Part shown: positions 12,313 through 32,622 of the stretch, piece after piece
Layout: the number at the start of each line of letters is the position of its first letter
Position numbering within the stretch: the first letter of the stretch is position 1
Origin: Ktedonobacterales bacterium
Lineage (GTDB): Bacteria > Chloroflexota > Ktedonobacteria > Ktedonobacterales > JADMIN01
NCBI GenBank assembly: GCA_036265775.1
Contig: DATAOM010000355.1
Coordinates: forward strand, 1-32,622
Reading direction: 5' to 3'
Length of the DNA: 32,622 nt
Program-made: the position numbers and the translations under genes
Notes under the pieces: generated by a model
The model's database searches: none
Told to the model about the DNA's origin: nothing
What the model saw: only the letters and a program-made list of their open reading frames with translations

Positions 12313-13245
12313 ATGGCGAAGAAGGGCAAGCGCAAACACCAGCATGAGGACGATGGCGAGAGCGGCGCGACGCTGACTCGTGACCCAGAAGCTGAAGGTC
12401 ATGCCAAAGGCCATTCTGGCAAAAACAGCCGCGAGCAGGCAGCAGGGCTGAATGGACGGGGCGCGGCGCGCAAGCCGATGAGCGCCAAGGAATACGAGAA
12501 GGCGCTCAAGCCGCTCCAGGTCGAGCTGGTGAAGCTGCAAAACTGGGCAAAGCAGACTGGCGCGCGCGTCATCGTCGTCTTCGAGGGGCGCGACGCCGCC
12601 GGCAAGGGCGGCTGCATCAAAGCCATTACCGAGCGGGTCAGCCCGCGCGTCTTCCGTATCGCCGCCCTTCCTGCCCCCACCGAGCGCGAAAAGACGCAAA
12701 TGTATTTTCAGCGCTACATGGAACACTTCCCGGCGGCCAGCGAGATCGTGCTCTTCGACCGTAGCTGGTATAACCGCGCCGGGGTGGAGCATGTCTTAGG
12801 CTATTGCACCGACGAACAGTATCGCGCCTTCCTGCGTGTGACCCCTGAGACCGAACGGGTCGTGGTCCAGTCTGGGATCATCCTGCTCAAGTACTGGTTA
12901 GAGGTGAGCCAGGAAGAGCAAACCCGCCGCTTCGAGGAGCGCATCCACGATGGGCGCAAGACGTGGAAGCTCAGCCCGCAGGACCTGGAGGCGCACCGCC
13001 TCTGGTACGACTATTCACGCGCTCGTGATGCGATGTTCGCCGCGACCGACACGCTGGAGGCGCCCTGGTATGTGATTGACGCCGAGGATCAGAAGCGCGC
13101 GCGCCTCAATTGCATCGCGCATCTGCTCAGCCAGATCCCCTACGAGGCGGTTCCGAGCAAGCCAGTCCGCCTGCCCAAACGCCAGGACGCCGATGGCTAT
13201 GTCGAGCCGAACTGGCGCCGTCACCCGGTTCCTGACGCCTATTGA
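12313..13245 (+). CDS. ppk2: Polyphosphate kinase 2 (PPK2)
   Basis: Walker A-like FEGRDAAGKGG, plus PR.F..A.P.PTEREK and FDRSWYNRAGVEHVLGYC hallmarks. GGGAG lies 7 nt before ATG 12313. An internal ATG at 12478 (MSAKEYEK) is an alternative start that would remove a charged about 55-aa N-terminal extension. Confidence 0.9.
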   Translation: MAKKGKRKHQHEDDGESGATLTRDPEAEGHAKGHSGKNSREQAAGLNGRGAARKPMSAKEYEKALKPLQVELVKLQNWAKQTGARVIVVFEGRDAAGKGGCIKAITERVSPRVFRIAALPAPTEREKTQMYFQRYMEHFPAASEIVLFDRSWYNRAGVEHVLGYCTDEQYRAFLRVTPETERVVVQSGIILLKYWLEVSQEEQTRRFEERIHDGRKTWKLSPQDLEAHRLWYDYSRARDAMFAATDTLEAPWYVIDAEDQKRARLNCIAHLLSQIPYEAVPSKPVRLPKRQDADGYVEPNWRRHPVPDAY

Positions 13246-13327
13246 GTCGTCGTAGCGCTTCATCCATCTAGCGACCGGAGCGTGCCGCTGGTTGTGGGAA
13301 TGATGGGAGCCGGTCAAGGAGAAAGCC

Positions 13328-16135: not shown

Positions 16136-16160
16136 ACGGGAAAACGAAAGAACCGCAAAC

Positions 16161-16204
16161 GCAGACATGCCGCAATCAGCCATCCAGCACTGCGGTGTGT
16201 CTGC
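16161..16204 (+). terminator. Stem-loop immediately after the ATPase stop (possible terminator without a U-tract)
   Basis: GCAGACAUGCCGCA (16161-16174) pairs with UGCGGUGUGUCUGC (16191-16204): 14 bp including two G-U pairs, with a 16-nt loop. It starts 26 nt after stop 16135. No U-run follows. Confidence 0.3.
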
Positions 16205-16325
16205 AGCGGATCGCTCACTGAGACACGACCACAGTCGTAGATAGACCGCGCCAGGACCACCACATATTCTGTCCTGATGTTTTTGTCCTGGCGGCGTCGC
16301 ATTAGATTGTCTCTTGAGGCTTACG

Positions 16326-18041
16326 ATGTCAGCGCCTAGTTCCTCGTCATCGCGCCGCGCCCGTCTGGAACAGTGGGCGCCGGGGCTGCGTGTCCTGCGC
16401 ACATACGACCGATCCTGGTTGTCCAAAGATCTGGTCGCAGGTCTTGTCCTTTCCGCGCTGCTTATCCCACAGGGGATGGCCTATGCCGAGTTGGCTGGCC
16501 TCCCGGCGATTACTGGCCTCTACACTACCGTCATCTGCCTGCTCGCCTATGCGATCTTTGGCCCTTCTCCCCGCCTGGTGCTCGGCCCAGATTCGTCGTT
16601 GGGGCCGATGATCGCGGCGGCGATCTTGCCGCTGGCGGCGGGCAGCGTAGACCGCGCAGTAGGGCTGGCTGGCACACTGGCGCTTCTCGTTGGAGCGATC
16701 TGCGTGATAGCTGCGGTCGCGCGACTCGGATTCGTCGCCGACCTTATCTCCAAACCCGTGCGCATGGGCTATCTCGCGGGTTTAGCCGTCACAATCGCGG
16801 TAGGTCAATTGCCCAAACTGCTCGGCTTTTCTGTCGACGCAGATAGTTTTGTCCAGGAGGTGCGCGCGATTGTGACGCAGTTGGGGCAGACCAATTTCTG
16901 GACGTTTGCGGTTGGTCTCCTCACGTTGGTCATCATCGTTGGGCTGCGCCGCTGGGCGCCGCGAGCGCCGGGCATTCTCTTCGCCGTCTTCGCGGCGATC
17001 GTCGTTACCTCACTCCTGAATCTGGCTGCCCACGACGTCGCGACCGTCGGCGTCTTGCCACAAGGCTTCCCCCTGCCACAGTTGCCGCGCGCTTCCCTTT
17101 CGGACCTCCCGATTCTTATCGCCACGGCATTCGGCATCTCGCTGGTGGCCATTGGCGATACGATCTCTACCTCGGCGGGATTCGCTTCGCGCCAAGGGTT
17201 GGAGATAGACGCCAATCAGGAGCTTGTCGGCATCGGCGCGGCGAACGTGCTGGCGGGATTCTTCCAGGGATTTCCCATTAGCACCAGCAGCTCACGAACC
17301 GCCGTCGCTGAACAATCGGGCGCGAAGACTCAGTTGACTGGCGTGGTGTCGGCGGCGGTCGTGCTCGTCATGCTGTTGTTTCTTCCGGGCTTGGTACGCA
17401 ACCTGCCGCAGTCGGCGCTGGCCGCGATCCTGATCGTCGCCGCCGCAGGTCTCCTCGATCTTGAAGGTCTGCGCCAACTGCTGTTGGATAGCCAGAGCGA
17501 GTTTGTTCTCGCTATCATCTGCGCGCTCGGCGTCATCTTCATCGGCGTCTTGCAAGGTATCCTCGTGGCGATCCTGCTCTCGGTCTTTCAACTCTTTGCG
17601 CGTATATGGCGACCTCGATGGGCCGTGATGGGACGAGAGGATGGGCTGCCTGGCTTCCAGGATCTGCAGCGGCATCCAGCGGCGCGGCCATTGCCTGATA
17701 TCCTGATCATTCGATGGAGCGCCCCGCTGATGTTTGCGAACGCCACGGTGTTCCGCTCCGTCGTCCGGGAGCAGCTTACCCAGAGGGACCCGCAGCCGAA
17801 GTGGGTCGTCATCGCGGCCGAACCGATCACCGAATTGGACACCACAGCAGGCGACATGCTACGGGACCTGGACCTGGAACTCAATGCGAAGGGCATACAT
17901 CTGGCCTTCGCTGAGCTCCAGGGACCAGTACGGGAACATCTCATCAAGCTGGGGCTACAAAAGACAATTGACGCGCGGAACTTCTATCCAACGCTGGATA
18001 CGGCGATCGAGGCCATTGCGGAGCAGGCGCCAACGGAATGA
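16326..18041 (+). CDS. SulP-family anion transporter with C-terminal STAS domain (second, divergent copy)
   Basis: LVAGLVLSALLIPQGMAYAELAGLPAITGLYT and a STAS-like end (ILIIRWSAPLMFANATVF...GIHLAFAELQ). GAGG lies 6 nt before ATG 16326; the track's TTG at 16314 is 4 codons upstream. Confidence 0.9.
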   Translation: MSAPSSSSSRRARLEQWAPGLRVLRTYDRSWLSKDLVAGLVLSALLIPQGMAYAELAGLPAITGLYTTVICLLAYAIFGPSPRLVLGPDSSLGPMIAAAILPLAAGSVDRAVGLAGTLALLVGAICVIAAVARLGFVADLISKPVRMGYLAGLAVTIAVGQLPKLLGFSVDADSFVQEVRAIVTQLGQTNFWTFAVGLLTLVIIVGLRRWAPRAPGILFAVFAAIVVTSLLNLAAHDVATVGVLPQGFPLPQLPRASLSDLPILIATAFGISLVAIGDTISTSAGFASRQGLEIDANQELVGIGAANVLAGFFQGFPISTSSSRTAVAEQSGAKTQLTGVVSAAVVLVMLLFLPGLVRNLPQSALAAILIVAAAGLLDLEGLRQLLLDSQSEFVLAIICALGVIFIGVLQGILVAILLSVFQLFARIWRPRWAVMGREDGLPGFQDLQRHPAARPLPDILIIRWSAPLMFANATVFRSVVREQLTQRDPQPKWVVIAAEPITELDTTAGDMLRDLDLELNAKGIHLAFAELQGPVREHLIKLGLQKTIDARNFYPTLDTAIEAIAEQAPTE

Positions 18042-21870: not shown

Positions 21871-22040
21871 TGGAAGAACGGTATGGTTGTTTGACACTCC
21901 ACGGGGGCTAAAGTCCCATGGATTCTCGGTTCTCCGACGCGGCTAGCGCCACGCCTCCCCGAAGGCTCTGACCGAGCCACTCTATATTCCTGGCGGCGTT
22001 CTGGTCCCGATGGAGGCTCGTTCCGCACTCCGGACAAGCA
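21871..22040 (-). ncRNA. Predicted omega (right-end) RNA of the TnpB element, with a guide derived from flanking DNA; boundaries approximate
   Basis: By analogy with characterised TnpB systems, the guide RNA overlaps the tnpB 3' end and the right end. Here a terminal hairpin CCAUGGG-ACUUUAGCC-CCCGUGG (21899-21921) contains the tnpB stop codon in its loop. It is followed by AGUGUCAA and then flanking sequence ACAACCAUACCGUUCUUCCA (21871-21890). The 5' boundary is a guess. Confidence 0.3.
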
Positions 22041-23146
22041 TGCCAACGGACAGAGAGACCCTTCTGGACCAGCACGCCACAGCCAGAACACGTCTGGCTC
22101 GTGAACGCAGGATTGACCGCTATGACTCGCCTACCGGCGCATGCTGCCTTGTAGGTGAGGGTGCTCAGGAACGCTGCCCACCCTGCATCCTGGATGCTCT
22201 TGGCGAGATGGTGGTTCCTGACCATATTGGCGACCTGCAAGTCCTCGTGATAAATCGTGTCGTTGGCTCTGACCAGTGCCAGCGCCGTCTTATGATGGAA
22301 GTCTTGCCGCTGGCGCCGCACCTTCTGGTGCGCCTTCGCCAACAGTGTGACCGCCTTGCGGCGTCGGTGGCTGCCACGCTGGCGCCGACTCACTCTGCGT
22401 TGGGCAGTCTTGAGCGCGCGTTCCGCTTTGCGATACCAACCGGGGGAGAAGATGCGCGTGCCGTCGGAGAGCGTGGCGAAGGCTTCCAGGCCAAGATCTA
22501 TGCCGGTTTCCTGTCCAGTGGGCGGCAAGGGCTGTACGGGCACATAGGCGCAGGAGAAGCAGACGTACCAACCGTCTGCCTCCTTGCTGATCGTGACCGT
22601 CTTGGGCGTCCCCTCCAAGGGGCGAGACCAGCGCACTGCAATCCGCCCGATCTTTGACAGCACAAGGAAGCCGTTATCCAGTGTCGCGCCGTTGCCATAT
22701 TCTATGTATGTGAACGAATGCCAGCGAGTACGCGCCTGATAGCGGGGAAAGCCTGCTTTCTCGCCTGCTTTCACCCGGCGAAAGAACGCTTGATACGTCT
22801 TGTCCAGCCGCGCCAGCACATCTTGCAAGATGTGGCTATGGATGGCGGCGTACTCAGGAAAAGCGGCACGAATATCCTTGAGTTCTGCTGCTTGTTGATA
22901 ACGCGAAAGCGAAATCCGGCAACGCTGCCAAGCCGTGATACGTTGCTCTAGCGCCGTGTTGTAGAGCCAGCGGCACAAGCCAAGGGTACGCCCCAACGCC
23001 CGCTCCTGCGTGGGAGTGGACATGAGCTTGTGCTTGAATGTCTTGCGTACCGTTGACTGCTCCATACATCTCTATTCTGTCTGATTGGCGCAAAAATGGT
23101 AATAGCGCGGAATGGTGGCTAAAGCCACACACGCCTGACCGCGCGG
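21891..23146 (-). mobile_element. IS200/IS605-family element carrying only tnpB (IS1341-like); ends predicted from matched subterminal hairpins
   Basis: Left-end hairpin GTGGC-TTTA-GCCAC (23115-23128) and right-end hairpin GGGAC-TTTA-GCCCC (21904-21917) share the loop and closing pair. TTCAAC (23147-23152) lies 18 nt outside the left hairpin. TCAA (21891-21894) lies 9 nt beyond the right hairpin. This spacing resembles what I recall for IS608. Exact ends are inferred. Confidence 0.55.
21908..23065 (-). CDS. tnpB: TnpB (RNA-guided RuvC endonuclease; IS200/IS605 OrfB)
   Basis: N-terminal KTFKHKL.PT..Q...L signature. RuvC triad intact: GIDLG (D190), IYHEDL (E274), HRDQNAARNI (D354). Zinc finger CSGCG...CPECG (C326, C329, C344, C347). 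385 aa. Confidence 0.93.
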   Translation of the reverse strand: MEQSTVRKTFKHKLMSTPTQERALGRTLGLCRWLYNTALEQRITAWQRCRISLSRYQQAAELKDIRAAFPEYAAIHSHILQDVLARLDKTYQAFFRRVKAGEKAGFPRYQARTRWHSFTYIEYGNGATLDNGFLVLSKIGRIAVRWSRPLEGTPKTVTISKEADGWYVCFSCAYVPVQPLPPTGQETGIDLGLEAFATLSDGTRIFSPGWYRKAERALKTAQRRVSRRQRGSHRRRKAVTLLAKAHQKVRRQRQDFHHKTALALVRANDTIYHEDLQVANMVRNHHLAKSIQDAGWAAFLSTLTYKAACAGRRVIAVNPAFTSQTCSGCGVLVQKGLSVRWHACPECGTSLHRDQNAARNIEWLGQSLRGGVALAASENRESMGL

Positions 23147-23357: not shown

Positions 23358-23903
23358 TCAGCCTATCGTGAACTCTGCCGAATAGACCGGCGCGCCGGTG
23401 GCGCTAGCAGCAGCTCCGGTCCCATTGGGCGTATACGTCAGCATTACACGATATGTGCCCGCTGGCCAGCCAGCGCCGTTGTCCATCTCATGGGCGTATT
23501 CGATGCGCTGCACGAACGCGCTTCCAGCGGAAATGACCACCGACTTCCTGCCTGCTGGGGCGGGCGCGCACTGGCTGACGCTCTGCCAGGAGTTCTGCAC
23601 CAGACGCTCGACTTCGATCGAGACGCATCCAGTTCCGCCGTCTGTCAGCGCAATGTCGGTCTGCAATCCGTTGTGAATCGTCACCAGCAGCGGTTCCTCG
23701 GCGCCGTACTGCTGTTTGGCAAGGGATAGGGTCACCTTGCCTGACGTTGTCTGCGACCCCGCGCCTGCCTGGGCCGTCTGGGTAGAAGCTCCCTGCGCGT
23801 CAGCGGCGCCGCTTGGGCTACTAACTTGGCCACAACCAACAACAAATAGCGCAAGCAGCAAGGACGCCGCCAGCGCCAACGGACGCATGATCGTATTTCG
23901 CAC
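23358..23903 (-). CDS. Secreted lipoprotein, function unknown
   Basis: AAGGAGG lies 7 nt upstream of GTG 23903. Signal peptide with lipobox: MRPLALAASLLLALFVVGC-G. A low-complexity linker precedes an about 120-aa beta-rich domain with two Cys. Confidence 0.75.
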   Translation of the reverse strand: MRNTIMRPLALAASLLLALFVVGCGQVSSPSGAADAQGASTQTAQAGAGSQTTSGKVTLSLAKQQYGAEEPLLVTIHNGLQTDIALTDGGTGCVSIEVERLVQNSWQSVSQCAPAPAGRKSVVISAGSAFVQRIEYAHEMDNGAGWPAGTYRVMLTYTPNGTGAAASATGAPVYSAEFTIG

Positions 23904-24069
23904 TGAGCTACCTCCTTTACTGAATCTTACTACTATTGACGCCGCATTATGCGCGTAGGTTCCATAGGCGACCGGTGGTTCGCGGCGAACACCGCCGAGG
24001 CTCTATTGCCGCATGATACGCGGTCGCACAACCTGAGACAACCACCAAGAGCGCGTCTCACACATGGTC

Positions 24070-24101
24070 GAGGGCCGGCTCCCAGATAGGAACCGGCCCT
24101 C
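24070..24101 (-). terminator. GC-rich stem-loop downstream of the BNR-repeat gene
   Basis: GAGGGCCGG (24070-24078) / CCGGCCCTC (24093-24101): perfect 9-bp stem, 14-nt loop, about 55 nt after stop 24156. A second 7-bp hairpin sits at 24118-24139. No U-tract. Confidence 0.35.
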
Positions 24102-24155
24102 GCATTCACCCGACCGATTGAGTCAGCCTATCGACTCAACCGATCAGAACGTACG

Positions 24156-27032
24156 TCATTTCAGGTTGATCGCCCAGATACTACGGCCGTGCGTCGCCGC
24201 AAACAACTTATGCCCGGTGCTGGTCGTCACCAGCGTGAGGCCATTGACCTTAACGATCGGCAGGCCGGAGCCAACCGGCAGCCAGTGGGAGGTCCCGCCA
24301 CCGATATTGTGCAGGACGCCGAAATCGGTGGAAACGTAGACGTCGTTGGCGTGCGGGTCGAAGGCGATGCCAGTGATTGGCTGGTCGCCGAGACCGCTGC
24401 TCAGATCCGTCCATGTCGCCGTGTGCGTCGCCGGATCGTAGAGGACATCGAAGACATGGCCCTTCGCCGTCCCCGCGGCCTGCGCGTATGCGTCATAGCC
24501 CGAGAACGAGATGAACGCATGGTTCGGATTGCGCGGATCGACCGCGATACCGCTCACAAAGCGCGTCGGCGTGTTCGGCGTGTCGATGCGCGTGTAGGAG
24601 ACGGTGCTCGCATCGCTCGCATCAGCGTTGGTGCTGATGAAGACACGACCACGGCGCGTGCCGGCCCACAGCGTGCCGGTATTGCTCGTCGTGCGGGCGA
24701 TGGCGACGACATAGTTCCCAGCGGAATCAGCCGGGCTGCTCGCACCCTTGTCCGCGCCGAAGAACGTGCCGGAGAGGTCGCCAGCGTCATTCAAGTTGGT
24801 CGACGGGAATGGGTCGTTCGGGTTGGCATAGACGCCACCCATGGGCACCCAGTCGCCGCACTTCGCGGCGAAGTCGCCGGTGAACTCGTTGCAATGCTGG
24901 TCGAGATAGGCTTGCGGGCCGCCATTATCCGTGGTGCGGAAGATGTGCTGCTCGCCCTCAAACATCGTGTCGGCCTTGGCCGTATTCGGATCGTAGATCA
25001 TCGGCACGTAGAAGGACGCGCCCTCATTGTTGCCGAGCGGATCGGCGATCCAGTCCCACTGGTCCGGCGCGCCATTGTGGAAATTGACGTCGTGCGCCGG
25101 ATTGAAGAACGAATGGAACGAGATGTTGGAGTGAGCGGCGTTGATGCCAGACTGGCCACCGTCACCACCAATCGCCTCGAGCCAATCGCTCGTGCCACCA
25201 CCCTGGATCCCGTTCATCCAGGTGCCGTTGTCCTGGGTGCCACCGATGAGCATGCTCGGATTCTGCGGATCCACCGAGACGCTCTGGAACTGCAGTGTCT
25301 GCAGGCCGGCGTTCATGGAATAGATACGCGTCGGCACCGCAGTGAGCCAGGCGTTGCAGAGAGCCTTGGAAGTGGCGCCGAGACCGCGGACATTGCACCC
25401 CAGGTTGGGGTCAGTGGCCATATTCGAAAAGGTCCCGCTTGTGCGCACAATGCCGCCGTCAGAGCCAGCGAAGGCGATATCGGGGTTGTTCGCGTCAAAG
25501 GCGAGCGCGTGCTGGTCGGGGTGCATCCCGATGAAGTTCATGTCGTAGCTCATGTCCGTGAAGCTGACACCCGCATTCGTGGAGCGCTGCACGGCGCGCG
25601 AGTTGGACCGACCCGCTAACTCTTCGTACTTAAACAGTCCACTGAGCCAGACCGTGTCCGGATGGCCAGCAGGCGAGGTGACGACCATATCGTAACTGCA
25701 CTGCGATGTGGTCTGGGTGCGGCAGAAGTCGTACGATGCGAAGCCGTTCGGGTTGGAGGCGCTGGAGTTGGAAAGCTCCTGCCAGACAGGGGTCGCGATG
25801 CTGGCGTCGTCGGTGCGATAGAACCGCGCGATTCCAGTCCGCCCATCAGCAAGATAGATGCGAAGCTTGCCGCTGCCATCGATCAGCGGAGCGAGCGCGA
25901 ACTCCACGCGGTTGTTCGCGCTGTTCGCAGGGTCTCCGGCGTCAAATGCGGTGAAGACCTGCTCGAACGCGCCGTTCGTGCCACGGAAGAGGCCGTAGTC
26001 GAACATCGAGAAGTAGAAGCGCCCTGTGGTCGTCGGGTCAAACGAGACCTTGGAGACACCACCGCGGAAGAAGTCGCTTCCGTTCGGAGAGGTGGGATCC
26101 ACCGGATCGGATGGTTGACTGAAGGTCAAGGTGAAATGTGCGCCACCATCGGTTGACTCGTAGAGGCCAATCGTCGGCGCGCCCGGGGGCGTGAAGCGGC
26201 CACCGTTCACAGACGACACGCCGTGACGGGCCACCGCGGTGCCAATCACAATGTGGCTGGCGTTGTGGGGGTCCACGTCGATCGAGGCGATCGAACGGCC
26301 AGCCGCCGCAGCCGGGCTGCCGGCGAGCAGGGTCCAGTGGGCGCCACCATCGGTCGTCGAGTACATGCCAACCCCGGCCTCAGAGTCGCTGGAACCGTTG
26401 GGTTCGCCGGTACCGACGAGGACGTGATCCTTGTTGGCTGGATCGACCCAGAGGGAGCCGATGGCCGCCGAATCCATTCCGTTCGGCATTGCCGTCCAGC
26501 TCGGAGGCGTCGCCAGCGCGTCATTGGTGCGCCAGACGCCACCGCCAGCGGCGCCGAGGTAGAGCCGGCAATCACCAGGATTGCAGGTCGAAGCCACGCC
26601 AATCGCCGTGACACGTCCCGATTCAATCTTTGGCCCGAACGAGCGGGACCATTCGACTGGGACGTTGCCGGTCGAGGGGCCGAGCGGCTGCCACGTGGCG
26701 CCCTTGCCATTCGGATCGCCACCCTTCACGATGCCGTTGTATGCATTGCGGGCATTGGACACCTGGGCCGGGGCGATGTACGTCGATGGATACGCCTGAT
26801 TGTCGTAGAGCTCCTGATTGGGGCTGCCAAGGTCGCTTCGCGGAGCCTCGGAGCCGGCATTATCGCTTTCAAACTTACCGGTGTGGTGGCTAAATGAGAG
26901 ATTGGCGCCTACGCTAGTGGGGCGCACGAGGAACGTGCTCGCGCTTACCGCCACCAGGGCAACCACCCCGACGACGCCAATGATGCCAAGGATCCGCTGC
27001 CGTGCGGACAGACTGGATAACCAGCGTTTCAC
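24156..27032 (-). CDS. Large secreted or membrane-anchored BNR/Asp-box repeat beta-propeller protein (VPS10/GH74-like)
   Basis: Asp-box motifs STDGGAHW, STDGGAHF and STNAGVSF, plus GTQDNGTW and TTDNGG. N-terminal signal anchor KRWLSSLSARQRILGIIGVVGVVALVAV. I place the start at GTG 27032 (G-rich SD AAGGGGGGGG ending 4 nt upstream, separated by UGUA) rather than the track's 27140. Confidence 0.85.
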   Translation of the reverse strand: MKRWLSSLSARQRILGIIGVVGVVALVAVSASTFLVRPTSVGANLSFSHHTGKFESDNAGSEAPRSDLGSPNQELYDNQAYPSTYIAPAQVSNARNAYNGIVKGGDPNGKGATWQPLGPSTGNVPVEWSRSFGPKIESGRVTAIGVASTCNPGDCRLYLGAAGGGVWRTNDALATPPSWTAMPNGMDSAAIGSLWVDPANKDHVLVGTGEPNGSSDSEAGVGMYSTTDGGAHWTLLAGSPAAAAGRSIASIDVDPHNASHIVIGTAVARHGVSSVNGGRFTPPGAPTIGLYESTDGGAHFTLTFSQPSDPVDPTSPNGSDFFRGGVSKVSFDPTTTGRFYFSMFDYGLFRGTNGAFEQVFTAFDAGDPANSANNRVEFALAPLIDGSGKLRIYLADGRTGIARFYRTDDASIATPVWQELSNSSASNPNGFASYDFCRTQTTSQCSYDMVVTSPAGHPDTVWLSGLFKYEELAGRSNSRAVQRSTNAGVSFTDMSYDMNFIGMHPDQHALAFDANNPDIAFAGSDGGIVRTSGTFSNMATDPNLGCNVRGLGATSKALCNAWLTAVPTRIYSMNAGLQTLQFQSVSVDPQNPSMLIGGTQDNGTWMNGIQGGGTSDWLEAIGGDGGQSGINAAHSNISFHSFFNPAHDVNFHNGAPDQWDWIADPLGNNEGASFYVPMIYDPNTAKADTMFEGEQHIFRTTDNGGPQAYLDQHCNEFTGDFAAKCGDWVPMGGVYANPNDPFPSTNLNDAGDLSGTFFGADKGASSPADSAGNYVVAIARTTSNTGTLWAGTRRGRVFISTNADASDASTVSYTRIDTPNTPTRFVSGIAVDPRNPNHAFISFSGYDAYAQAAGTAKGHVFDVLYDPATHTATWTDLSSGLGDQPITGIAFDPHANDVYVSTDFGVLHNIGGGTSHWLPVGSGLPIVKVNGLTLVTTSTGHKLFAATHGRSIWAINLK

Positions 27033-27436
27033 TACACCCCCCCCTTGGACTAGATGGTCACGAACTACGGTGGCGGAAATGGCTCGCAGCCAGCGCCACA
27101 ATTGGCAATCGGACGAATTGCCCCTACACAAGCGCCGCAAATGCCGTGTACTCGTTGCTCTAGCGTCACATGTGGCTGGAGCAATTGCGCGCCGATGATG
27201 CGTTTACACGGCGCAGCAGGAGAGATACGGCATGTGACATTCCGGGCCTCGTCCGAACGCAACGCACATTGGGCCGCTGCCCCTACACGCCAACCGACGC
27301 CTGTTGCTCCATTGCAGCAGGCGGACTTTAGCAGCCAGATTGCACCTCAGCGGAATCTCTGTGACTTCTCCTTGCCACTCCTCCTTTTGCTCGTTCAGCA
27401 ACAACGAATCTAGCGTAGTGTCTGTTATAGCTTGCA

Positions 27437-27465
27437 AGTATAGCGGGTAACGCTCCTTGAGTAAA
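27437..27465 (-). promoter_or_regulatory. Sigma70-like promoter candidate facing the BNR-repeat gene (TTTACT-17 nt-TATACT)
   Basis: The reverse complement of 27437-27465 reads TTTACT CAAGGAGCGTTACCCGC TATACT. It would give an about 400-nt leader before GTG 27032. Confidence 0.35.
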
Positions 27466-27570
27466 GAGCCTGTTTCCTGCTATAAACCGATCCGCCTGAG
27501 ATGGCGTATGAAGGCTGTTCGCCGCCTGTGCGACCTACTACGCTCGTTCGATACAGAAGTGGTGAGGGAA

Positions 27571-27612
27571 AGCGCCTACCAACGCAGGTAGCGCTCTGGA
27601 CTGAGCGCTACC
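27571..27612. promoter_or_regulatory. Three-segment mutually exclusive hairpin set (attenuator-like)
   Basis: Segment 2, GGTAGCGCT (27587-27595), pairs perfectly with segment 3, AGCGCTACC (27604-27612). It can alternatively pair, with one bulge, with segment 1, AGCGCCTACC (27571-27580). Confidence 0.3.
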
Positions 27613-27721
27613 ATACCTTCTGTGTTCAACGGAGCAGGTGTATTTGGGTAACTGCGCTACAGCGAGAAATCTCTTCCTTTGAATATTTGCTATACTGCTT
27701 GCCTTTGTCCTTTGTTTACAC

Positions 27722-27750
27722 TTGACACGCTTCGACCGTCCCGGTAAGAT
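27722..27750 (+). promoter_or_regulatory. Strong sigma70-like promoter candidate (TTGACA-17 nt-TAAGAT)
   Basis: TTGACA at 27722-27727, a 17-nt spacer and TAAGAT at 27745-27750, about 75 nt upstream of the small membrane-protein gene. An extended -10 TGCTATACT at 27688-27696 sits just upstream. Confidence 0.55.
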
Positions 27751-27825
27751 AGGCGCCATGCTACGCCTGAACATCGGGTGGAGAGGGTCTCTAGACCTGT
27801 GTTTAAGTAGAGAGGCAAGGGGTTC

Positions 27826-28053
27826 ATGTCGAGCACATGGCGCTGGATTGTCACGGCCTTGGGTCTCATTACTGGCGCGCTGTTTCTGCTGACGGTGGTC
27901 AATGCGGACTGGCTCGAAGCTATCGGCATCGATCCTGATGGCGGCGATGGCTCGGTCGAGCGGTTGATCGTGGGGGGACTGGCATTACTGACAGTAGTTC
28001 TCTTCTCGGTGGCCTCCTATCAATGGGGAAAGGCCAGCGCGGCCAAGGCATAG
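27826..28053 (+). CDS. Small two-TM membrane protein (75 aa)
   Basis: Two hydrophobic helices flank the loop DWLEAIGIDPDGGDGSVE. This resembles a conserved small-protein motif (DW.E..FG.DPD.G.GS.E) that I recall from actinobacterial hypothetical proteins. A purine-rich stretch GAGGCAAGGGG lies upstream of ATG 27826. Confidence 0.65.
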   Translation: MSSTWRWIVTALGLITGALFLLTVVNADWLEAIGIDPDGGDGSVERLIVGGLALLTVVLFSVASYQWGKASAAKA

Positions 28054-28129
28054 TGATCGCCTGATCTGCCTGTTGGCGTGCTTGTATCCAGAGCGCGCGT
28101 TTCCTTGGTCCACCTCAGCTATCTATGCG

Positions 28130-28164
28130 AGACTGCCCGGAGCGGATGGCAATCTGGGCAGTCT
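28130..28164 (+). terminator. Stem-loop between the small membrane-protein gene and the repeat-protein gene
   Basis: AGACTGCCC (28130-28138) / GGGCAGTCT (28156-28164): perfect 9-bp stem, 17-nt loop, followed by TCTGCT. It may attenuate read-through from the 27722 promoter. Confidence 0.35.
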
Positions 28165-28371
28165 TCTGCTATGCGCGGTGTTGAATGGGCCATGCACGAA
28201 TGGCGCCGAGAAAAAGCGCTGCCGCCATCGCCATTGCCGCTTGAAGAGTTGCTAGGCCGTGATGGCGCAAATATCAAGGAAGCGCGCCATATGCACACCA
28301 CTTCCTCCGCTAGCTAGCGAACGAGCGAACGAGTATACTGTCGTGGCGCCACGCTACATGGGGGAGGCCCG

Positions 28372-31182
28372 ATGATCGACCAATCTGCGGACGTCAGCGC
28401 GCAAGCCAAGACGCTCATCAGCGCGCCGGGAGATGACGCTGAGCTACTGGAGCAGCTGAAGTCGCTAGCCCTGGCGCACGAGGAAGAATTCTCCGCCTGC
28501 GCAGGCGTCTGGGCGCCGGGGCTATACGAGCGCGATCCCGACTTCTTCGGGCCGTTCCTGGTCGCCTACCTGGACACCAAGCAGGAGGAAGCCATTAAGG
28601 CGCTCCTGGCCAGGGCGGAAGCCGACGGGCATGATGAACTCTTCGCCGATCTCTATCAGAAGTTTCGGGATGAGAAGAGTTGGAACGGCGATGTCGCGCG
28701 ACTCGCGCGCGCACGCCTCTCCGACGATGAAGCGCTCAAGGCGCTGCAACGCCGAGAGAATCCGCGCTCGCGCTGGCGGTTGAGTGAAGGTGTGGCGCTG
28801 GCGCTGTATCGGCGCAATCCCGAGCGCTTCGGCGAGTTCGTGCGCGAGCACGTCCAGCGTGGCTGGAGTCGTCGCCCGGAACGCTATCGGCGTTTGCGCC
28901 GAGAAGCGCGCGCACGCGGTGACGATACCCTCTACTGGGCGCTCTTCCGCGACTACGCCAGCGACGAGGAGTGGAGGGCGAGCGTCCATCAATTGCTGGC
29001 GAGCAAGCCCCCAGCCAGCGCACTGATCGAGGAGTTGGACAAGCGGCAGCCAACGCGCGCCGTCGCGTTGGACATGAAGACGCTCACCAGCCTCGTGCGT
29101 ACCTACCGGCAAGAGGCGATACCGTACCTCGAACAGCATCTCTCCTCGGCGCCGGATTCTTTGCTCAAACAGGCTCGCAAGCTCGGCGATGAGACGCTGT
29201 ACTGGTCTCTTTTCTTCCTCGCTGGAACCTCCGCGCGCTGGAACGCCGACCTGCGCGAGCAGATCGCCCGGCCGCTCTCGGATGAGCAACTCGAAGAAGT
29301 GTTGCGCCTGCGAACGCCGCCGGAGGAGCGCCGCCACGCCTGGCGATTGGAGAAGGACGTGGCGCAGGCGCTCTACCAGCGCAACGCCACTCTCTTCGGG
29401 CCATTCCTCGACGAATTCGCTAACGGTGGCCTGGCCGCCCTGGAGCTGCCCCAGCGCATACAGGCGGCGCTCGGCGCCGATCAGGATCGCGGGGCGCTCT
29501 TGCGCGAGATGGAAGCGCTCGCGCAGGCGCCTGGGTTCTCGGAGCAGGCGCCGCAGTGGGCTCCAGCGCTGTACGAGCGCGATCCGCTGTTCTTCGAGCC
29601 ATTCCTGACTAACCACCTCTCTGGCGACCAGACCGAGGTCATCACGCAACTGCTCACGCGCTCCGAGGCGGCGGGACAGGACTCCTTCTTCACCGCGCTC
29701 TACCGCAAGGTCGCGCGGGAAGATACGTGGAACAAAGAACTCGCCGAGCTGGCGGAGTCGCCGCTGCCAGATGACACAGTGGTCCAGATGATCCTGCGCC
29801 GCCAGGCGGATAGCTGGCTCAGCCTCACCGACAAGACGGCGACGGCGCTCTATCGCCGCGATCCGGCGCGCCTGGGCGCTTTCGTGCGCGAGCATGCGCA
29901 GCACAGTTGGCGTGAGGAGGAGAGTTACAAACAACTGCGCGAGGCGGCGCGTCTGCGTGGGGACGACGATCTCTACTGGGCGCTGTTCCGCGAGCTGGCG
30001 GATGAGCGTGAGTGGCAGGCCGAGGCGCGCCGCCTGCTGGCCAGCGACACGCCTCCCGAGCGCATCGCCGAGGAGTTGACGAAGCGCCACCCCGAACATC
30101 TGTGGAACGTCGATACCGGCGTCATCGCCGACATCATTGAGAAATACGGGCGCGCGGCGCTCCCCTACGTCCAGGAGCATCTGACCTGGATCACCCGTCG
30201 CGCGGCGCCGAAGCTCCTCACGCGCATCAAGAAGCTGGGCGATGAGAACCTGTACTGGCCCATCTTCTTCAAGGCCGGCGACAGCAAGCAGTGGAACGAG
30301 GCGCTGCGTGAGCTGCTGGCGCAGCCGCTCGGGGCCGAGGAGTTGGCCGCTCAGCTTCCTCTGCGCACGCCGCCCGTGCGCCGCTGGGGTGGCTGGACCC
30401 TTGAGGAGGATGTCGCGCTGGGCTTCTACCGCCGTGACCCACAGCGATTCGCGCCATTTCTGGAGCGGTTCGCGCATGGCTCCTACGACGAGGCGCTCTT
30501 CGTAGAAGCCCAGGCGAAGCAGGACGAGGACTTCCTGGATTATCTTTCACTTCAGCTCTTGCGCCAGATCGAGTCCTGGCTCAACCTGGCGTATCCCACC
30601 GACTCCACGCTCCGGTGGCGCAAGCCGGACATGAAGGCGCAGGACAAGGTGCGGCGCACGGGGCGTATGCTGACCGACCGCTTCGACCGCCTCGTGGCGC
30701 AGTCGCCTGCGCTGTACGTACGGCACGCGGCGGCGATGCTGAGCCGGATCAACGCGTTTGAGGTCTGGTCCTTCAAGCGAAACCTGTCGTTCAACCCAGC
30801 GTTCGCCTACCTGTACACGCAACATCGCGCGGCGTGGCTCGCCGAGCCGGATGCGCTGCGCGAAGTCCTGGAGTCGCCCAATATCTATGTGCAGATTCTG
30901 GGCCTGCTGATGCTCGGTGAGGGTGGCGCCGACGCGGCGGAGCGGGCGCGCGAGAATCTGTTGATCCTGCGCGCCCTCCTGCTTGGTGGCGCGCATGTGA
31001 GCACGAAGAAGCTGGCGCTGCGCGCACTCGAGCTGGCGGCGCGCCAGGGAGAGACGTACGCCGCGCAGTTCCTCCCGGTCGTGGAGGAGGCGGTCCACCT
31101 GAGCGGCAGACGCGCGGTGGACCAGCAGGCGATGGTCGCGTTCGTGCGGCTACAACGCGAGCTGGCGGCGCAGAGCGCCTGA
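28372..31182 (+). CDS. 936-aa all-alpha repeat protein of unknown family (internal duplication plus HEAT/ARM-like C-terminus)
   Basis: GGGGGAGG lies 4 nt upstream of ATG 28372. Residues about 22-352 and about 371-702 are collinear copies. The motif ALY(R/E)R(D/N)P..F..F(L/V) occurs six times, and GD(D/E).LYW.(L/I)F four times. The C-terminal about 200 aa look HEAT/ARM-like (NIYVQILGLLMLGEGG...LLILRALLLGG...KKLALRALELAA). Confidence 0.85.
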   Translation: MIDQSADVSAQAKTLISAPGDDAELLEQLKSLALAHEEEFSACAGVWAPGLYERDPDFFGPFLVAYLDTKQEEAIKALLARAEADGHDELFADLYQKFRDEKSWNGDVARLARARLSDDEALKALQRRENPRSRWRLSEGVALALYRRNPERFGEFVREHVQRGWSRRPERYRRLRREARARGDDTLYWALFRDYASDEEWRASVHQLLASKPPASALIEELDKRQPTRAVALDMKTLTSLVRTYRQEAIPYLEQHLSSAPDSLLKQARKLGDETLYWSLFFLAGTSARWNADLREQIARPLSDEQLEEVLRLRTPPEERRHAWRLEKDVAQALYQRNATLFGPFLDEFANGGLAALELPQRIQAALGADQDRGALLREMEALAQAPGFSEQAPQWAPALYERDPLFFEPFLTNHLSGDQTEVITQLLTRSEAAGQDSFFTALYRKVAREDTWNKELAELAESPLPDDTVVQMILRRQADSWLSLTDKTATALYRRDPARLGAFVREHAQHSWREEESYKQLREAARLRGDDDLYWALFRELADEREWQAEARRLLASDTPPERIAEELTKRHPEHLWNVDTGVIADIIEKYGRAALPYVQEHLTWITRRAAPKLLTRIKKLGDENLYWPIFFKAGDSKQWNEALRELLAQPLGAEELAAQLPLRTPPVRRWGGWTLEEDVALGFYRRDPQRFAPFLERFAHGSYDEALFVEAQAKQDEDFLDYLSLQLLRQIESWLNLAYPTDSTLRWRKPDMKAQDKVRRTGRMLTDRFDRLVAQSPALYVRHAAAMLSRINAFEVWSFKRNLSFNPAFAYLYTQHRAAWLAEPDALREVLESPNIYVQILGLLMLGEGGADAAERARENLLILRALLLGGAHVSTKKLALRALELAARQGETYAAQFLPVVEEAVHLSGRRAVDQQAMVAFVRLQRELAAQSA
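28435..30477 (+). repeat. Intragenic tandem duplication (about 1 kb x 2, diverged) inside the repeat-protein gene
   Basis: Copy A is about 28435-29427 and copy B about 29482-30477. The protein-level offset is 349 aa (WAPGLYERDP at aa 47, WAPALYERDP at aa 396). Roughly 40% aa identity by eye. Boundaries are approximate. Confidence 0.8.
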
Positions 31183-31209
31183 GAAGGCCAGGGGAGAACG
31201 GAGTCCAAC

Positions 31210-32622
31210 ATGGAGGTTGCGCTGGCGTACGACAGCCCGACGACGGTCATCACGACGCCTGGGGTTTCCGCGCTGGAGATCGCCACCAATCGCCGCCGCG
31301 CGCCCGTCGCGTTCAGGGGTCGGGTGAAAGCGCCCTACCTGCTGCGACAACTCCTGCTCGGGCTGCATCGGGTGATCGTGAGCGACCTGCGCTGGCTCGA
31401 CGAGGACGAGTGGGTACAGATGCTCGACCCCGTCATCACCGTGCATCACGACCAGCTCTTCTTCGAGGCGTTCAGTAACGACCAGTCCTCGTACGCCCGC
31501 CTCTCCGCGCCGCTGGACGCGTTCGAGCCTGAGGGTGAGGTGCGCTACGGGACGACGAATATCGACTTCACCGAGCAACTGCGTGACGCGCTGACGCAGT
31601 TACGCAGCTCGCGGCGCACATTATTGGCGGTGGGCGCGACGGGCTTTGGTGTGACCTCAGCGGTCGGCGCGGGAGCGCGCGAGCATGTCGAGCGCAAGGT
31701 CGATGTGCCGGATGACTGGCTCAAAGGCTTCCTCCAGGTGCAGAGCGCCTTCGCCATGCATCCTTACCAGTTCGACGCCCAGCCGGTGGACCTGCTCTCG
31801 GTGATTGCCTTCTTGCAAGAGAACAAGCCGCCCACACTGCCGCACGGGATGCGCGTCGAGTTCACTCCCGACGCGCCGATTCTGATCGCGCTGGAACCCT
31901 GGGACCAGCGCTTCGTCCTGCGTGGGACGCGCTATAGCGGCTACGAGCGCAGCGTACGCCTCTGGGGGCGACGGCGGCTTGAACTATTGCAGGGTGTGCT
32001 GCCCTACGCCGACAAGGTGACAATTGGGGTGCTGGGGCGCGGCCTGCCACACTACTACATCTGCCATTGCGGGCCGTTTCAGTTCACGCTGGCGCTCTCC
32101 GGCTGGACGAAGAATGACTGGTCGAAGGATAGCGCGTTAGATGCGCTCGCGCCGCGTGGGACACCCGACGTGAAGCTGGTTGCGCGGGTCTACGCCTATC
32201 TCGGCGAGCGCCTGCTGGCGCGCCGGGACGAGATCGCCGCCGACATAGGGATCGAGAAGAGTGAGGCGGAGAGCGCGCTTTTCGCGCTGTGCCGCGCCGG
32301 GCGGGCGATGTATGACCCCACCACACGCCAGTATCGCAACCGCGACCTCTTCGCCGAGCCGCTCGACATCGTGAAGTTGTTCGCGCCGAATCCACGTGCC
32401 CTCGCGGCGCAGCGCCTCGTAGAGGCGGGGGCTGTGTCGCTGGGGGAGATCACGCCGCCTGAGCGCCGGGACGACAATCGCCGCGAGACCCGCGCGGAGG
32501 CGCGTGTGACCGACGGGCAGGTCTACGATGTTCTGGTCTCGGTCGATAGCTCAGGGCGCTTGCGCTTTGGCCGCTGTGGATGCCCCTACTTCCAGAACAA
32601 CCTCTTGTCGCGTGGCCCCTGC
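31210..32622 (+). CDS. SWIM zinc-finger protein with a long N-terminal domain and a winged-helix-like segment; 3'-truncated by the window end
   Basis: Not in the supplied ORF track because it has no stop. I translated frame 1 from ATG 31210 (GGAG 6 nt upstream) to nt 32622 and found no stop (471 codons). It ends in YDVLVSVDSSGRLRFGRCGCPYFQNNLLSRGPC, the first part of a SWIM CxC...C(x)H finger (CxC at 32575-32583). It starts 27 nt after the upstream stop. Confidence 0.85.
   Translation, partial: MEVALAYDSPTTVITTPGVSALEIATNRRRAPVAFRGRVKAPYLLRQLLLGLHRVIVSDLRWLDEDEWVQMLDPVITVHHDQLFFEAFSNDQSSYARLSAPLDAFEPEGEVRYGTTNIDFTEQLRDALTQLRSSRRTLLAVGATGFGVTSAVGAGAREHVERKVDVPDDWLKGFLQVQSAFAMHPYQFDAQPVDLLSVIAFLQENKPPTLPHGMRVEFTPDAPILIALEPWDQRFVLRGTRYSGYERSVRLWGRRRLELLQGVLPYADKVTIGVLGRGLPHYYICHCGPFQFTLALSGWTKNDWSKDSALDALAPRGTPDVKLVARVYAYLGERLLARRDEIAADIGIEKSEAESALFALCRAGRAMYDPTTRQYRNRDLFAEPLDIVKLFAPNPRALAAQRLVEAGAVSLGEITPPERRDDNRRETRAEARVTDGQVYDVLVSVDSSGRLRFGRCGCPYFQNNLLSRGPC

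What the first reader, a model, noticed from the sequence alone, without database searches (positions are those of the whole stretch)
28372..31182. 936-aa all-alpha protein built from a two-level internal repeat, with no family I can name
Residues about 22-352 and about 371-702 are collinear copies (offset 349 aa, about 40% identity by eye). Each half is itself made of roughly 90-aa modules. The motif ALY(R/E)R(D/N)P..F..F(L/V) occurs six times, starting at nt 28513, 28795, 29362, 29560, 29839 and 30415. GD(D/E).LYW.(L/I)F occurs four times. A Trp-centred helix ..W(N/R/Q)....L..LLA occurs six times. The last about 230 aa switch to a HEAT/ARM-like pattern. There are no TM segments, no signal peptide and no catalytic motif that I recognise. 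A large modular helical scaffold encoded 27 nt upstream of a SWIM/winged-helix protein looks like the sensor or scaffold half of a multi-component system. Such a system might act in nucleic-acid surveillance or as an NTPase-coupled conflict system. I cannot assign it.
Basis: seen in the sequence. Interest (0 to 1): 0.7.

Follow-up and report, generated by a model that had tools for sequence, protein, structure and literature searches.

The report
Retron helper protein with duplicated repeats
The 936-residue all-helical protein is the helper subunit of a type XIII retron (a bacterial reverse-transcriptase system, presumed to act in phage defence); it belongs to a widespread family that no domain library describes, and here its four-module repeat array has been duplicated.

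Summary
ORF 28372-31182 encodes 936 aa. Its halves are 46% identical (E 4e-95). Each half is four ~93-aa modules that are homologous by profile comparison, followed by an unrelated ~195-aa C-terminal domain.

It is not an orphan. The next gene matches PADLOC SWIM_XIII (E 4e-140). A 99.3%-identical contig that runs past the window end carries a conserved msr-msd-like ncRNA and an RT_XIII reverse transcriptase (E 2.5e-138). The order solenoid, SWIM, ncRNA, RT recurs in about 47 loci from at least seven phyla.

The protein therefore sits where Mestre et al. 2020 placed the HEAT/ARM-like accessory of type XIII retrons. However, its family (about 381 clusters at 50% identity) matches no Pfam, NCBIfam, PHROGs or PADLOC model, including WGR_XIII and HEAT-ARM_XIII.

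Type XIII splits cleanly in two:
- a WGR-linked branch, with ncRNA arms 192-225 nt apart;
- this branch, with arms 103-135 nt apart, probably Mx65-like.

The common form has one four-module array. This Ktedonobacterales-like clade has two, and Anaerolineae have three with different duplication boundaries. ncRNA length does not follow array number.

The mechanism (a scaffold joining RT-msDNA to the SWIM protein) is inferred. The SWIM partner's N-terminal ~300 aa is predicted to have a PCNA-like clamp fold.

The parts
28360..28367 (+). Shine-Dalgarno-like GGGGGAGG, ending 4 nt before the ATG of the solenoid gene
   Evidence: Read directly from the sequence.
28372..31182 (+). Gene for the 936-aa accessory alpha-solenoid (ALY/GD-repeat family) of a type XIII retron
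   Evidence: ORF. Homologues and synteny. AF2 model is all-alpha, pLDDT 89.6. Foldseek finds only generic HEAT solenoids.
28429..29481 (+). Array copy 1 (aa 20-370): modules M1-M2-M3-M4. This is the extra, N-terminal copy and the less conserved one
   Evidence: Module map. Mean identity among 2x orthologues is 73%. It is 44-46% identical to single-array proteins.
29482..30597 (+). Array copy 2 (aa 371-742): modules M1-M2-M3-M4. This copy is collinear with the array of single-array homologues
   Evidence: Module map. Mean identity among 2x orthologues is 81%, and it is 48-50% identical to single-array proteins.
30598..31179 (+). C-terminal helical domain (aa 743-936, modules C1-C2). It is unrelated to the modules and basic (the 717-936 segment has pI 9.25), and is a candidate docking module
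   Evidence: hhalign shows no relation to M1-M4. pI. The last ~110 aa resemble the C-terminus of WGR_XIII accessories only weakly (hhalign probability 33%, E 4.7e-4).
31210..32622 (+). 5' 471 codons of the SWIM_XIII partner gene (499 aa in the twin contig), cut by the window end inside the CxCx12CxH motif
   Evidence: PADLOC SWIM_XIII E 3.7e-140. D73-x7-D81-x4-E86-x32-D119-x41-E161 motif, and C456xC458x12C471xH473 in L004. AF2 plus Foldseek give a PCNA-like N-terminal fold.

Best explanation
**Identity.** The 936-aa protein is the accessory alpha-solenoid subunit of a type XIII retron, on the short-ncRNA branch that is probably Mx65-like. The cassette runs: solenoid gene, SWIM_XIII gene (PCNA-like fold, winged helix, SWIM zinc finger), msr-msd ncRNA, RT_XIII. 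Only the first two genes lie in the window.

**Shown.**
- The gene order is conserved across phyla and is often translationally coupled.
- RT, SWIM protein, accessory type and ncRNA length all divide into the same two branches.
- The protein is a two-level repeat: about 93-aa double-HEAT-like modules, four per array, with two arrays here.
- Both arrays have been kept through divergence down to 64% identity.

**Inferred.**
- The solenoid is a non-catalytic scaffold. Its conserved C-terminal domain and adjacent array hold the RT-msDNA particle and the SWIM protein in one complex.
- By analogy with characterised retrons, that complex stays inert until phage infection disturbs the msDNA or the complex itself.
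- The duplicated N-terminal array adds extra binding surface, either for a second partner copy or for a trigger. It does not serve to match a longer msDNA.
For: **The system.**
- SWIM_XIII matches at E 3.7e-140 in the window.
- Contig L004 is 99.27% identical to window 23583-32622 and extends 3 kb further. It carries an RT matching PADLOC RT_XIII at 2.5e-138, with YADD and NARPH motifs. The best PDB sequence hits are retron RTs (Ec86, 3e-38).
- Between the SWIM and RT genes there are a1/a2 inverted repeats, at 9242-9252 and 9358-9368.
- An alignment of ten loci shows the invariant GGTTAGCC (containing the usual TAGC priming-G context, PMC6868368). Fourteen of 28 predicted pairs keep pairing through compensatory changes.

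**Synteny.**
- It holds for 2x proteins, 1x proteins and 3x proteins (L019, L021).
- A genome scan with the SWIM profile gave 79 loci. Counting all fetched loci, including duplicate contigs, the upstream gene is this family in 51 and WGR_XIII in 34.
- Twenty of 47 loci have a 4-nt stop/start overlap with the SWIM gene.

**Co-segregation.** The RT neighbour-joining tree and the SWIM tree each separate WGR-linked from ALY-linked loci without exception. This agrees with the RT-accessory co-evolution that Mestre et al. reported.

**Fold.** AF2 pLDDT is 89.6. Foldseek hits are HEAT solenoids that act as scaffolds (MMS19, importins, FANCI/D2, CAND1; E 1e-4 to 1e-3). I saw no catalytic motif, and no enzyme family matches.
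Against: - No experiment on any type XIII accessory protein turned up in the searchable literature. Anti-phage activity of type XIII retrons is itself unproven.
- The RT and ncRNA are seen on a twin contig, not in the window itself.
- The repeat arrays are acidic (pI 5.2-5.9). That argues against simple nucleic-acid wrapping and leaves their binding partner unknown.
- Three 3x loci (L011, L020, L026) have the solenoid and SWIM genes but no adjacent RT. The pair may therefore act without a neighbouring retron RT.
- None of the PADLOC accessory models for type XIII recognises the protein.
Confidence: 0.8

Rival explanations
1. The solenoid is the sensor, not a passive scaffold. Its repeat surface binds a phage protein or a host guardee, and array duplications add or diversify recognition surfaces.
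For: - The extra N-terminal array evolves faster than the array next to the C-terminal domain: 73% against 81% mean identity, and 28% against 40% invariant columns.
- Arrays expanded independently, with different boundaries, in different lineages.
- Array number is unrelated to ncRNA length.
Against: - The difference in rate is small, and both arrays are clearly under constraint.
- No trigger is known.
- This reading does not exclude the scaffold reading.
Confidence: 0.3
2. The solenoid regulates or loads a clamp. It holds, opens or positions the PCNA-like SWIM partner on msDNA or on target DNA.
For: - The partner's N-terminal ~300 aa is predicted to have a sliding-clamp fold. Foldseek gives 456 PDB hits at E below 1e-3, and the listed top hits are almost all PCNA, with target-normalised TM 0.58-0.67.
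- The two genes are translationally coupled.
- The pair persists without an adjacent RT in L011, L020 and L026.
Against: - This rests on one AF2 model (pLDDT 79.5) and on fold similarity at 8-14% identity.
- There is no evidence of ring formation.
- No ATPase is present, whereas known clamp loaders are ATPases.
Confidence: 0.15
3. The solenoid binds the msDNA/msr directly and acts as a ruler or sheath, so array number follows msDNA length.
For: Mestre et al. suggest HEAT/ARM accessories may bind nucleic acids. The C-terminal domain is basic (pI 9.25).
Against: - The a1-a2 spacing is 103-116 nt in 1x loci, 105 nt in the 2x locus and 112 nt in a 3x locus. There is no scaling.
- The arrays are acidic.
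Confidence: 0.08
4. It is an unrelated housekeeping HEAT-repeat protein that merely sits next to a SWIM gene.
For: The flanking genes in the window are housekeeping or transport genes.
Against: - The adjacency is conserved in about 47 loci from Chloroflexota, Armatimonadota, Myxococcota, Verrucomicrobiota, Planctomycetota, Alphaproteobacteria and Bacteroidota.
- The flanks differ from locus to locus.
- Every context recovered for a family member includes a SWIM_XIII gene.
Confidence: 0.02

Closest known systems
HEAT/ARM-like accessory proteins of type XIII retrons (Mestre et al. 2020, clusters 216_1, 216_2, 259_1, 1688_1 and 3262_1; PADLOC WGR_XIII and HEAT-ARM_XIII)
   Same: - Same position, immediately upstream of the SWIM_XIII gene, in a cassette with RT_XIII and an msr-msd.
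- Same all-alpha solenoid character.
- Same co-variation with the RT.
- Possibly a shared C-terminal ~110 aa with WGR_XIII (hhalign E 4.7e-4, probability 33%).
   Different: - It has no WGR domain.
- It is not recognised by any of the four PADLOC accessory models, even at E up to 1.
- It is built from 93-aa ALY/GD modules.
- It is linked to a separate RT/SWIM clade and to a shorter ncRNA.
- It may be Mestre's cluster 216_2, but I could not check this because the supplement is not held.
Retron-Mxa2 (Mx65) of Myxococcus xanthus
   Same: - Mestre lists an 'Mx65' ncRNA subtype within type XIII.
- ALY-linked loci have a1/a2 arms 103-135 nt apart. That fits a short msDNA, whereas Mx162 has a 241-nt transcript (PMC6868368).
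- The myxobacterial ALY-linked RTs (Hyalangium, Archangium) carry GAExH in place of NAxxH. The Mx65 RT is reported to have a substitution at that Asn.
   Different: - I did not examine the M. xanthus locus itself, so the equivalence is an inference.
- The window's RT keeps NARPH, and its host is Chloroflexota-like.
Eukaryotic HEAT/ARM solenoid scaffolds (MMS19, importin-beta family, FANCI/FANCD2, CAND1)
   Same: The overall alpha-solenoid fold is shared (Foldseek E 1e-4 to 4e-3, probability 0.9-1.0). These proteins are non-catalytic scaffolds or clamps.
   Different: - TM-scores are only 0.1-0.23 and identity is 10-13%.
- Pfam HEAT and Arm models do not hit.
- This is a resemblance of fold class, not evidence of homology.
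DUF4132/MolR-type WGR proteins next to SWIM genes
   Same: They share the general theme of a helical protein encoded beside a SWIM-domain protein.
   Different: Neither DUF4132 nor WGR hits the 936-aa protein in Pfam at E up to 1. WGR appears only in the other branch's accessory, and there below Pfam's own threshold.

Membership tests
Type XIII retron system (Mestre et al. 2020) | Retron RT of clade 10 (PADLOC RT_XIII) in the cassette | tested here: met
   The RT is not in the window. On the 99.27%-identical contig L004 the RT (9404-10717) matches RT_XIII at 2.5e-138 and carries YADD and NARPH.
Type XIII retron system (Mestre et al. 2020) | Associated protein with a DEDE motif, a winged helix and a C-terminal SWIM CxCx12CxH (cluster 114_1) | tested here: met
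   SWIM_XIII matches at E 3.7e-140. The motif is D73/D81/E86/D119/E161, with the last spacing x41 rather than x37, and CxCx12CxH is present in L004.
Type XIII retron system (Mestre et al. 2020) | msr-msd ncRNA flanked by a1/a2 inverted repeats, with a priming G, upstream of the RT | tested here: met
   a1/a2 repeats are at L004 9242-9252 and 9358-9368. GGTTAGCC is invariant and 14 of 28 pairs are compensatory across 10 loci. Rfam has no model that hits. Production of msDNA cannot be tested here.
Type XIII retron system (Mestre et al. 2020) | HEAT/ARM-like repeat protein encoded directly upstream of the SWIM gene | tested here: met
   The gap to the SWIM gene is 27 nt. The fold is an all-alpha solenoid. 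Synteny is conserved.
Known type XIII accessory clusters as modelled in PADLOC (WGR_XIII PDLC02973; HEAT-ARM_XIII PDLC02920-22) | A significant match to one of the four accessory HMMs | tested here: not met
   There is no hit at E up to 1 for the window protein or for P0018, and none for the Hyalangium, Hyphomicrobium or L007 homologues. Accessories of the other branch match WGR_XIII at E from 1e-252 down to 0.
Mestre cluster 216_2 or 3262_1 (HEAT/ARM-repeat protein) | Sequence membership in the published cluster | not testable with these tools
   The supplementary tables are not held. Weak C-terminal similarity to the 216_1-type WGR proteins makes 216_2 plausible.
HEAT / ARM repeat families (Pfam) | A match to the HEAT, HEAT_2, Arm or related repeat profiles | tested here: not met
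   Pfam gives no family at E up to 1. The only similarity is at the level of fold class.
DUF4132 / MolR-type | Pfam DUF4132 and WGR domains | tested here: not met
   Pfam gives no family at E up to 1.
Anti-phage defence system | Demonstrated protection against phage | not testable with these tools
   I found no experimental paper on type XIII function. The window is not a defence island.

The most novel reading that the evidence does not exclude
The ALY/GD solenoid and the clamp-fold SWIM protein together form a module of their own, built around a DNA clamp. The solenoid positions or gates a PCNA-like ring on msDNA or on invading DNA. Array duplications (1x, 2x, 3x) set how many clamps or RT-msDNA particles one complex holds. 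The pair can work without a neighbouring RT, as in L011, L020 and L026. If so, the first retrons ever discovered (the Mx162/Mx65 group) would act through a clamp-based mechanism unlike any characterised retron effector.
Probability: 0.12. Interest if true: 0.75.

Novelty: new variant of a known kind. Interest (0 to 1): 0.42.

Why it matters
Type XIII includes Mx162 and Mx65, among the earliest retrons described. I found no experimental work on how its non-RT proteins function.

This analysis adds four things:
- It names an unannotated and widespread accessory family (about 381 clusters at 50% identity). No Pfam, NCBIfam, PHROGs or PADLOC model matches it, so PADLOC would report these cassettes without their accessory gene.
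- It shows that type XIII is really two co-evolving branches that differ in accessory protein, RT, SWIM protein and ncRNA length.
- It documents repeated, independent expansions of the accessory's module array. These give natural 1x, 2x and 3x variants for structure-function experiments.
- It suggests that the SWIM partner has a sliding-clamp fold, rather than being the transposase-derived protein proposed earlier.

For annotation the practical result is simple. This 'hypothetical protein' and its neighbour should be labelled as retron type XIII components.

Tried and rejected
- **Domain libraries for the 936-aa protein.** Pfam, NCBIfam, PADLOC and PHROGs all returned nothing.
- **PDB by sequence.** Neither the single sequence nor the family profile gave a significant hit.
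- **Foldseek.** PDB returned only generic solenoids at low TM-score. The viral library BFVD returned nothing below E 1e-3.
- **Mobile elements.** tblastn against the plasmid and phage collections found no match.
- **Rfam on the retron ncRNA region.** No retron family matched.
- **Array number follows msDNA length.** Rejected. The a1-a2 spacing is about 103-116 nt in 1x, 2x and 3x loci alike.
- **Defence-island context.** Rejected for this window, whose neighbours are transporters, PPK2, DUF2252 and TnpB.
- **Recent or artefactual duplication.** Rejected. DNA-level copies are only 61-80% identical, and both arrays are conserved in orthologues down to 64% identity.
- **P0047 (698 aa, carrying a SWIM Pfam hit).** It looked like a natural solenoid-SWIM fusion, but its middle is low-complexity out-of-frame-looking sequence. 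I treat it as a frameshift or assembly artefact.
- **Mapping the family to Mestre's cluster numbers.** Not possible, because the supplements are not held.
- **Sigma-70 promoter scans.** They gave nothing decisive.
Full report
**1. The observation**

ORF 28372..31182 (+) encodes 936 aa from an ATG preceded by GGGGGAGG. BLASTP of the first 360 residues against the next 360 aligns residues 16-353 with 367-704. Identity is 46% over 342 columns, E = 4e-95.

- Six ALY-type motifs occur, at aa 50, 144, 333, 399, 492 and 684.
- Four GD(D/E)xLYWx(L/I)F motifs occur.
- Five of the six ALY sites also form a DNA direct-repeat family at 61-80% identity. The repeat is old and is not an assembly artefact.

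For the second repeat level I cut an alignment of 28 single-array homologues (A1) into 93-aa pieces. Modules M1-M4 match one another by hhalign at 95.6-99.2% probability (E 1e-8 to 3e-19). The last ~195 aa (C1, C2) match neither the modules nor each other.

In the window protein the order is M1-M2-M3-M4-M1-M2-M3-M4-C1-C2. An AlphaFold2 model built on 48 sequences is entirely helical, with pLDDT 89.6 and pTM 0.68.

**2. What it sits in**

No domain library recognises the protein: Pfam, NCBIfam, PADLOC and PHROGs all return nothing.

The gene 27 nt downstream (31210 to the window end, 471 codons visible) matches PADLOC SWIM_XIII at E 3.7e-140. It carries the Dx7Dx4E...D...E motif and the start of CxCx12CxH. 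These are the features Mestre et al. 2020 give for the primary associated protein of type XIII retrons (PMC7736814).

An exact-sequence look-up found the same 936-aa protein on three metagenome contigs. One of them, L004, is 99.27% identical to window 23583-32622 and runs 3 kb further. On L004:
- The SWIM gene is 499 aa long.
- A 287-nt spacer follows, and then a 437-aa reverse transcriptase.
- The RT matches PADLOC RT_XIII at 2.5e-138, and its best PDB relatives are retron RTs.
- The spacer holds inverted repeats at 9242-9252 and 9358-9368.
- Folded as RNA, these extend into a ~19-bp stem that encloses smaller hairpins.

The corresponding regions of ten loci align well:
- GGTTAGCC is invariant just after the 5' arm. 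The priming G of retrons is usually in a TAGC context (PMC6868368).
- A conserved hairpin follows.
- Fourteen of 28 predicted pairs are kept through changes on both sides.

Rfam has no matching family. The cassette is therefore a retron, and only its first two genes fall inside the window.

**3. How general the linkage is**

The order solenoid, SWIM, RT was found in four kinds of locus:
- other 2x proteins, down to 64% identity;
- single-array homologues in Ktedonobacterales MAGs;
- a 307-kb contig;
- a distant homologue at 24% identity.

The flanking genes differ in every case.

A scan of one genome per species with a SWIM-protein profile returned 79 loci. I called ORFs in all loci and searched them with profiles of the solenoid family, the SWIM protein and the RT:
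- Nearly every locus has an RT after the SWIM gene.
- Counting every fetched locus, duplicate contigs included, the gene before the SWIM gene is a member of this family in 51 loci.
- These come from Chloroflexota, Armatimonadota, Myxococcota (including Hyalangium and Archangium), Verrucomicrobiota, Planctomycetota, Alphaproteobacteria and a Flavobacteriaceae MAG.
- In 34 loci the upstream gene is instead a ~1,050-aa protein that matches PADLOC WGR_XIII at E from 1e-252 down to 0. These include Bradyrhizobium, Methylobacterium, Vibrio penaeicida and Campylobacteraceae.
- The three loci with neither are cut off by a contig end.
- In 20 of 47 non-duplicate loci the solenoid stop codon overlaps the SWIM start codon by 4 nt.

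**4. Two branches of type XIII**

Neighbour-joining trees of the RT (77 sequences) and of the SWIM protein (84 sequences) each place all WGR-linked loci in one clade that contains no ALY-linked locus.

The ncRNA differs as well. The outer inverted repeats are 192-225 nt apart in WGR-linked loci. They are 103-135 nt apart in ALY-linked loci.

Three points suggest that the ALY-linked branch is the Mx65-like one and the WGR-linked branch the Mx162-like one:
- Mestre's Table 1 lists ncRNA subtypes 'Firmicutes/Mx162/Mx65/Ne144' within type XIII.
- Mx162 has a 241-nt primary transcript.
- The Mx65 RT is reported to lack the Asn of NAxxH. The myxobacterial ALY-linked RTs have GAExH, while all WGR-linked RTs have NAxxH.

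I did not see the M. xanthus loci themselves, so this equivalence is an inference.

**5. The family and its relation to known accessories**

An exhaustive profile search over 1.84 billion cluster representatives found 381 proteins at E up to 1e-3, and 204 at E up to 1e-30.
- Most are 580-640 aa long with one matched stretch.
- About 30 are 1,030-1,140 aa long with three stretches.
- Only one representative (P0001) is the 936-aa form.
- Sources name them all 'hypothetical protein'.

None of the four PADLOC accessory models for type XIII matches any tested member.

A profile-profile comparison with 18 WGR_XIII proteins shows only a weak similarity, probability 33% and E 4.7e-4. It links the last ~110 residues of both families. 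This hints at a shared C-terminal docking module but is not conclusive.

Mestre's list includes a subcluster 216_2, described as a 'HEAT/ARM-repeat' protein, alongside the WGR-type 216_1. This family may be 216_2. The supplement is not available here.

Foldseek of the model against the PDB returns scaffold-type HEAT solenoids: MMS19, importins, FANCI/FANCD2, CAND1 and condensin subunits. E-values are 1e-4 to 4e-3, but TM-scores are only 0.1-0.23. This shows the fold class, not homology. The viral structure library, plasmids and phages gave nothing.

**6. Array expansions**

| Form | Module order |
|---|---|
| 1x | M1-M2-M3-M4-C1-C2 |
| 2x (this window's clade) | (M1-M4)x2-C1-C2 |
| 3x (mainly Anaerolineae) | (M1-M3)x2, then M1-M4-C1-C2 |
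| other | M1-M2-M3-M2-M3-M4-C1-C2 (P0064) |

Because the boundaries differ, these are independent duplication events.

Among the 14 2x orthologues both arrays are conserved. Array 1 is somewhat freer: 73% against 81% mean identity, and 28% against 40% invariant columns. Array 2 is the copy closer to single-array proteins.

The spacing of the ncRNA arms is the same in 1x, 2x and 3x loci. The arrays are therefore not a ruler for msDNA length. The arrays are acidic (pI 5.2-5.9), while the C-terminal segment (aa 717-936) is basic (pI 9.25).

**7. Mechanism**

Shown:
- The gene belongs to a four-part cassette whose parts co-diversify.
- It is translationally coupled to the SWIM gene.
- It encodes a large non-enzymatic solenoid.

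Inferred:
- The solenoid is the scaffold that ties the RT-msDNA particle to the SWIM protein. This fits Mestre's finding that the type XIII RT co-evolves with the accessory rather than with the SWIM protein.
- By analogy with characterised retrons, the complex would be held inactive until infection disturbs it.
- The extra array probably adds binding surface, either for a second partner copy or for a trigger.

Rival readings are given with their evidence in the Rival explanations section. They are a sensor surface, a clamp regulator, an msDNA sheath and chance adjacency. The sheath and chance-adjacency readings are disfavoured respectively.

**8. The partner**

I modelled the full-length twin of the window's SWIM protein (P0200, 99% identical). 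The model has pLDDT 79.5 and pTM 0.82.

Foldseek against the PDB gave 456 hits at E below 1e-3. The listed top hits are PCNA or other sliding clamps, apart from structures in which PCNA is bound to a partner:
- E is as low as 2.5e-9.
- About 290-308 columns align.
- The target-normalised TM-score is 0.58-0.67.

The N-terminal ~300 aa contains the 'DEDE' residues that Mestre et al. read as transposase-derived. This region is instead predicted to be a two-domain DNA-clamp fold, followed by the winged helix and the SWIM finger. I found no paper linking retrons, SWIM and sliding clamps. This rests on one model and needs experimental confirmation.

**9. Verdict**

The finding is real. Its 'orphan' status is resolved: it is the accessory solenoid of a type XIII retron.

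The kind is known. The family itself is absent from every domain and defence library available here, which counts as new. So do its clean association with a distinct branch of type XIII and the duplicated-array architecture of this particular protein.

Interest is moderate.

Noticed in passing
window 31210-32622 (+), and its full-length twin P0200: The N-terminal ~300 aa of the SWIM_XIII partner is predicted to adopt a PCNA-like sliding-clamp fold. Foldseek gives 456 PDB hits at E below 1e-3, the listed top hits are PCNA or other clamps, and the target-normalised TM-score is 0.58-0.67. This differs from the transposase-derived origin proposed for the 'DEDE' region in 2020.
   Followed up: partly
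window about 32120-32320 (SWIM protein residues ~305-371): With the family profile, the winged-helix region gives repeated but non-significant PDB hits to Z-alpha (Z-DNA/Z-RNA-binding) domains. These are CyHV-3 ORF112 at E 0.03 and ADAR1 Z-alpha at E 0.4-1.6. It is only a lead.
   Followed up: no
loci L012-L090 (genome scan): Type XIII retrons fall into two branches that differ in every component. One has a WGR_XIII accessory and outer ncRNA repeats 192-225 nt apart. The other has the ALY/GD solenoid and repeats 103-135 nt apart. The RT and SWIM trees agree with this split without exception.
   Followed up: yes
L011 8001-14915; L020 958-5693; L026 3717-8449: Three loci with the triple-array solenoid have the SWIM gene but no RT or ncRNA motif next to it. 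In L011 three unrelated genes (aldo-keto reductase, acetyltransferase and a 126-aa ORF) separate the solenoid gene from the SWIM gene. Either the RT lies elsewhere in the genome or the pair works without it.
   Followed up: partly
L004 9218-9223: A perfect TATAAT lies about 10 nt upstream of the 5' arm of the ncRNA stem. It may be the -10 box of a separate msr-msd-RT promoter. The consensus scan did not call a full promoter there.
   Followed up: no
window 21908-23065 (-): A TnpB / IS605 OrfB-type gene (OrfB_IS605 5.8e-26, Cas12f1-like TNB 1.1e-23, HTH_OrfB_IS605) lies 5 kb upstream of the cassette. A similar gene lies 1.3 kb beyond the RT in the 2x locus L092.
   Followed up: no
window 24156-27140 (-): A 994-aa ORF with an N-terminal hydrophobic segment and repeated Asp-box-like motifs (for example STTDGGAHW and STDGGAHF) has no Pfam hit at E up to 1e-5 and no PHROGs hit. 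Its function is unknown, and it is not conserved next to the cassette in other loci.
   Followed up: no
window 27827-28054 (+): A 75-aa ORF with two hydrophobic segments lies between the 994-aa gene and the solenoid gene. It is called as a gene on the twin contigs L004-L006 but is absent from the more distant loci.
   Followed up: no
window 8264-18041: A cluster of two SulP/STAS sulfate permeases, a DUF2252 protein, a PPK2 polyphosphate kinase and a P-type cation ATPase. This is ordinary transport and metabolic context, not a defence island.
   Followed up: no
L039 3911-8611: In one uncultured-bacterium MAG the solenoid and SWIM reading frames run together as a single 1,566-codon ORF. It could be a real fusion or a sequencing frameshift.
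   Followed up: no
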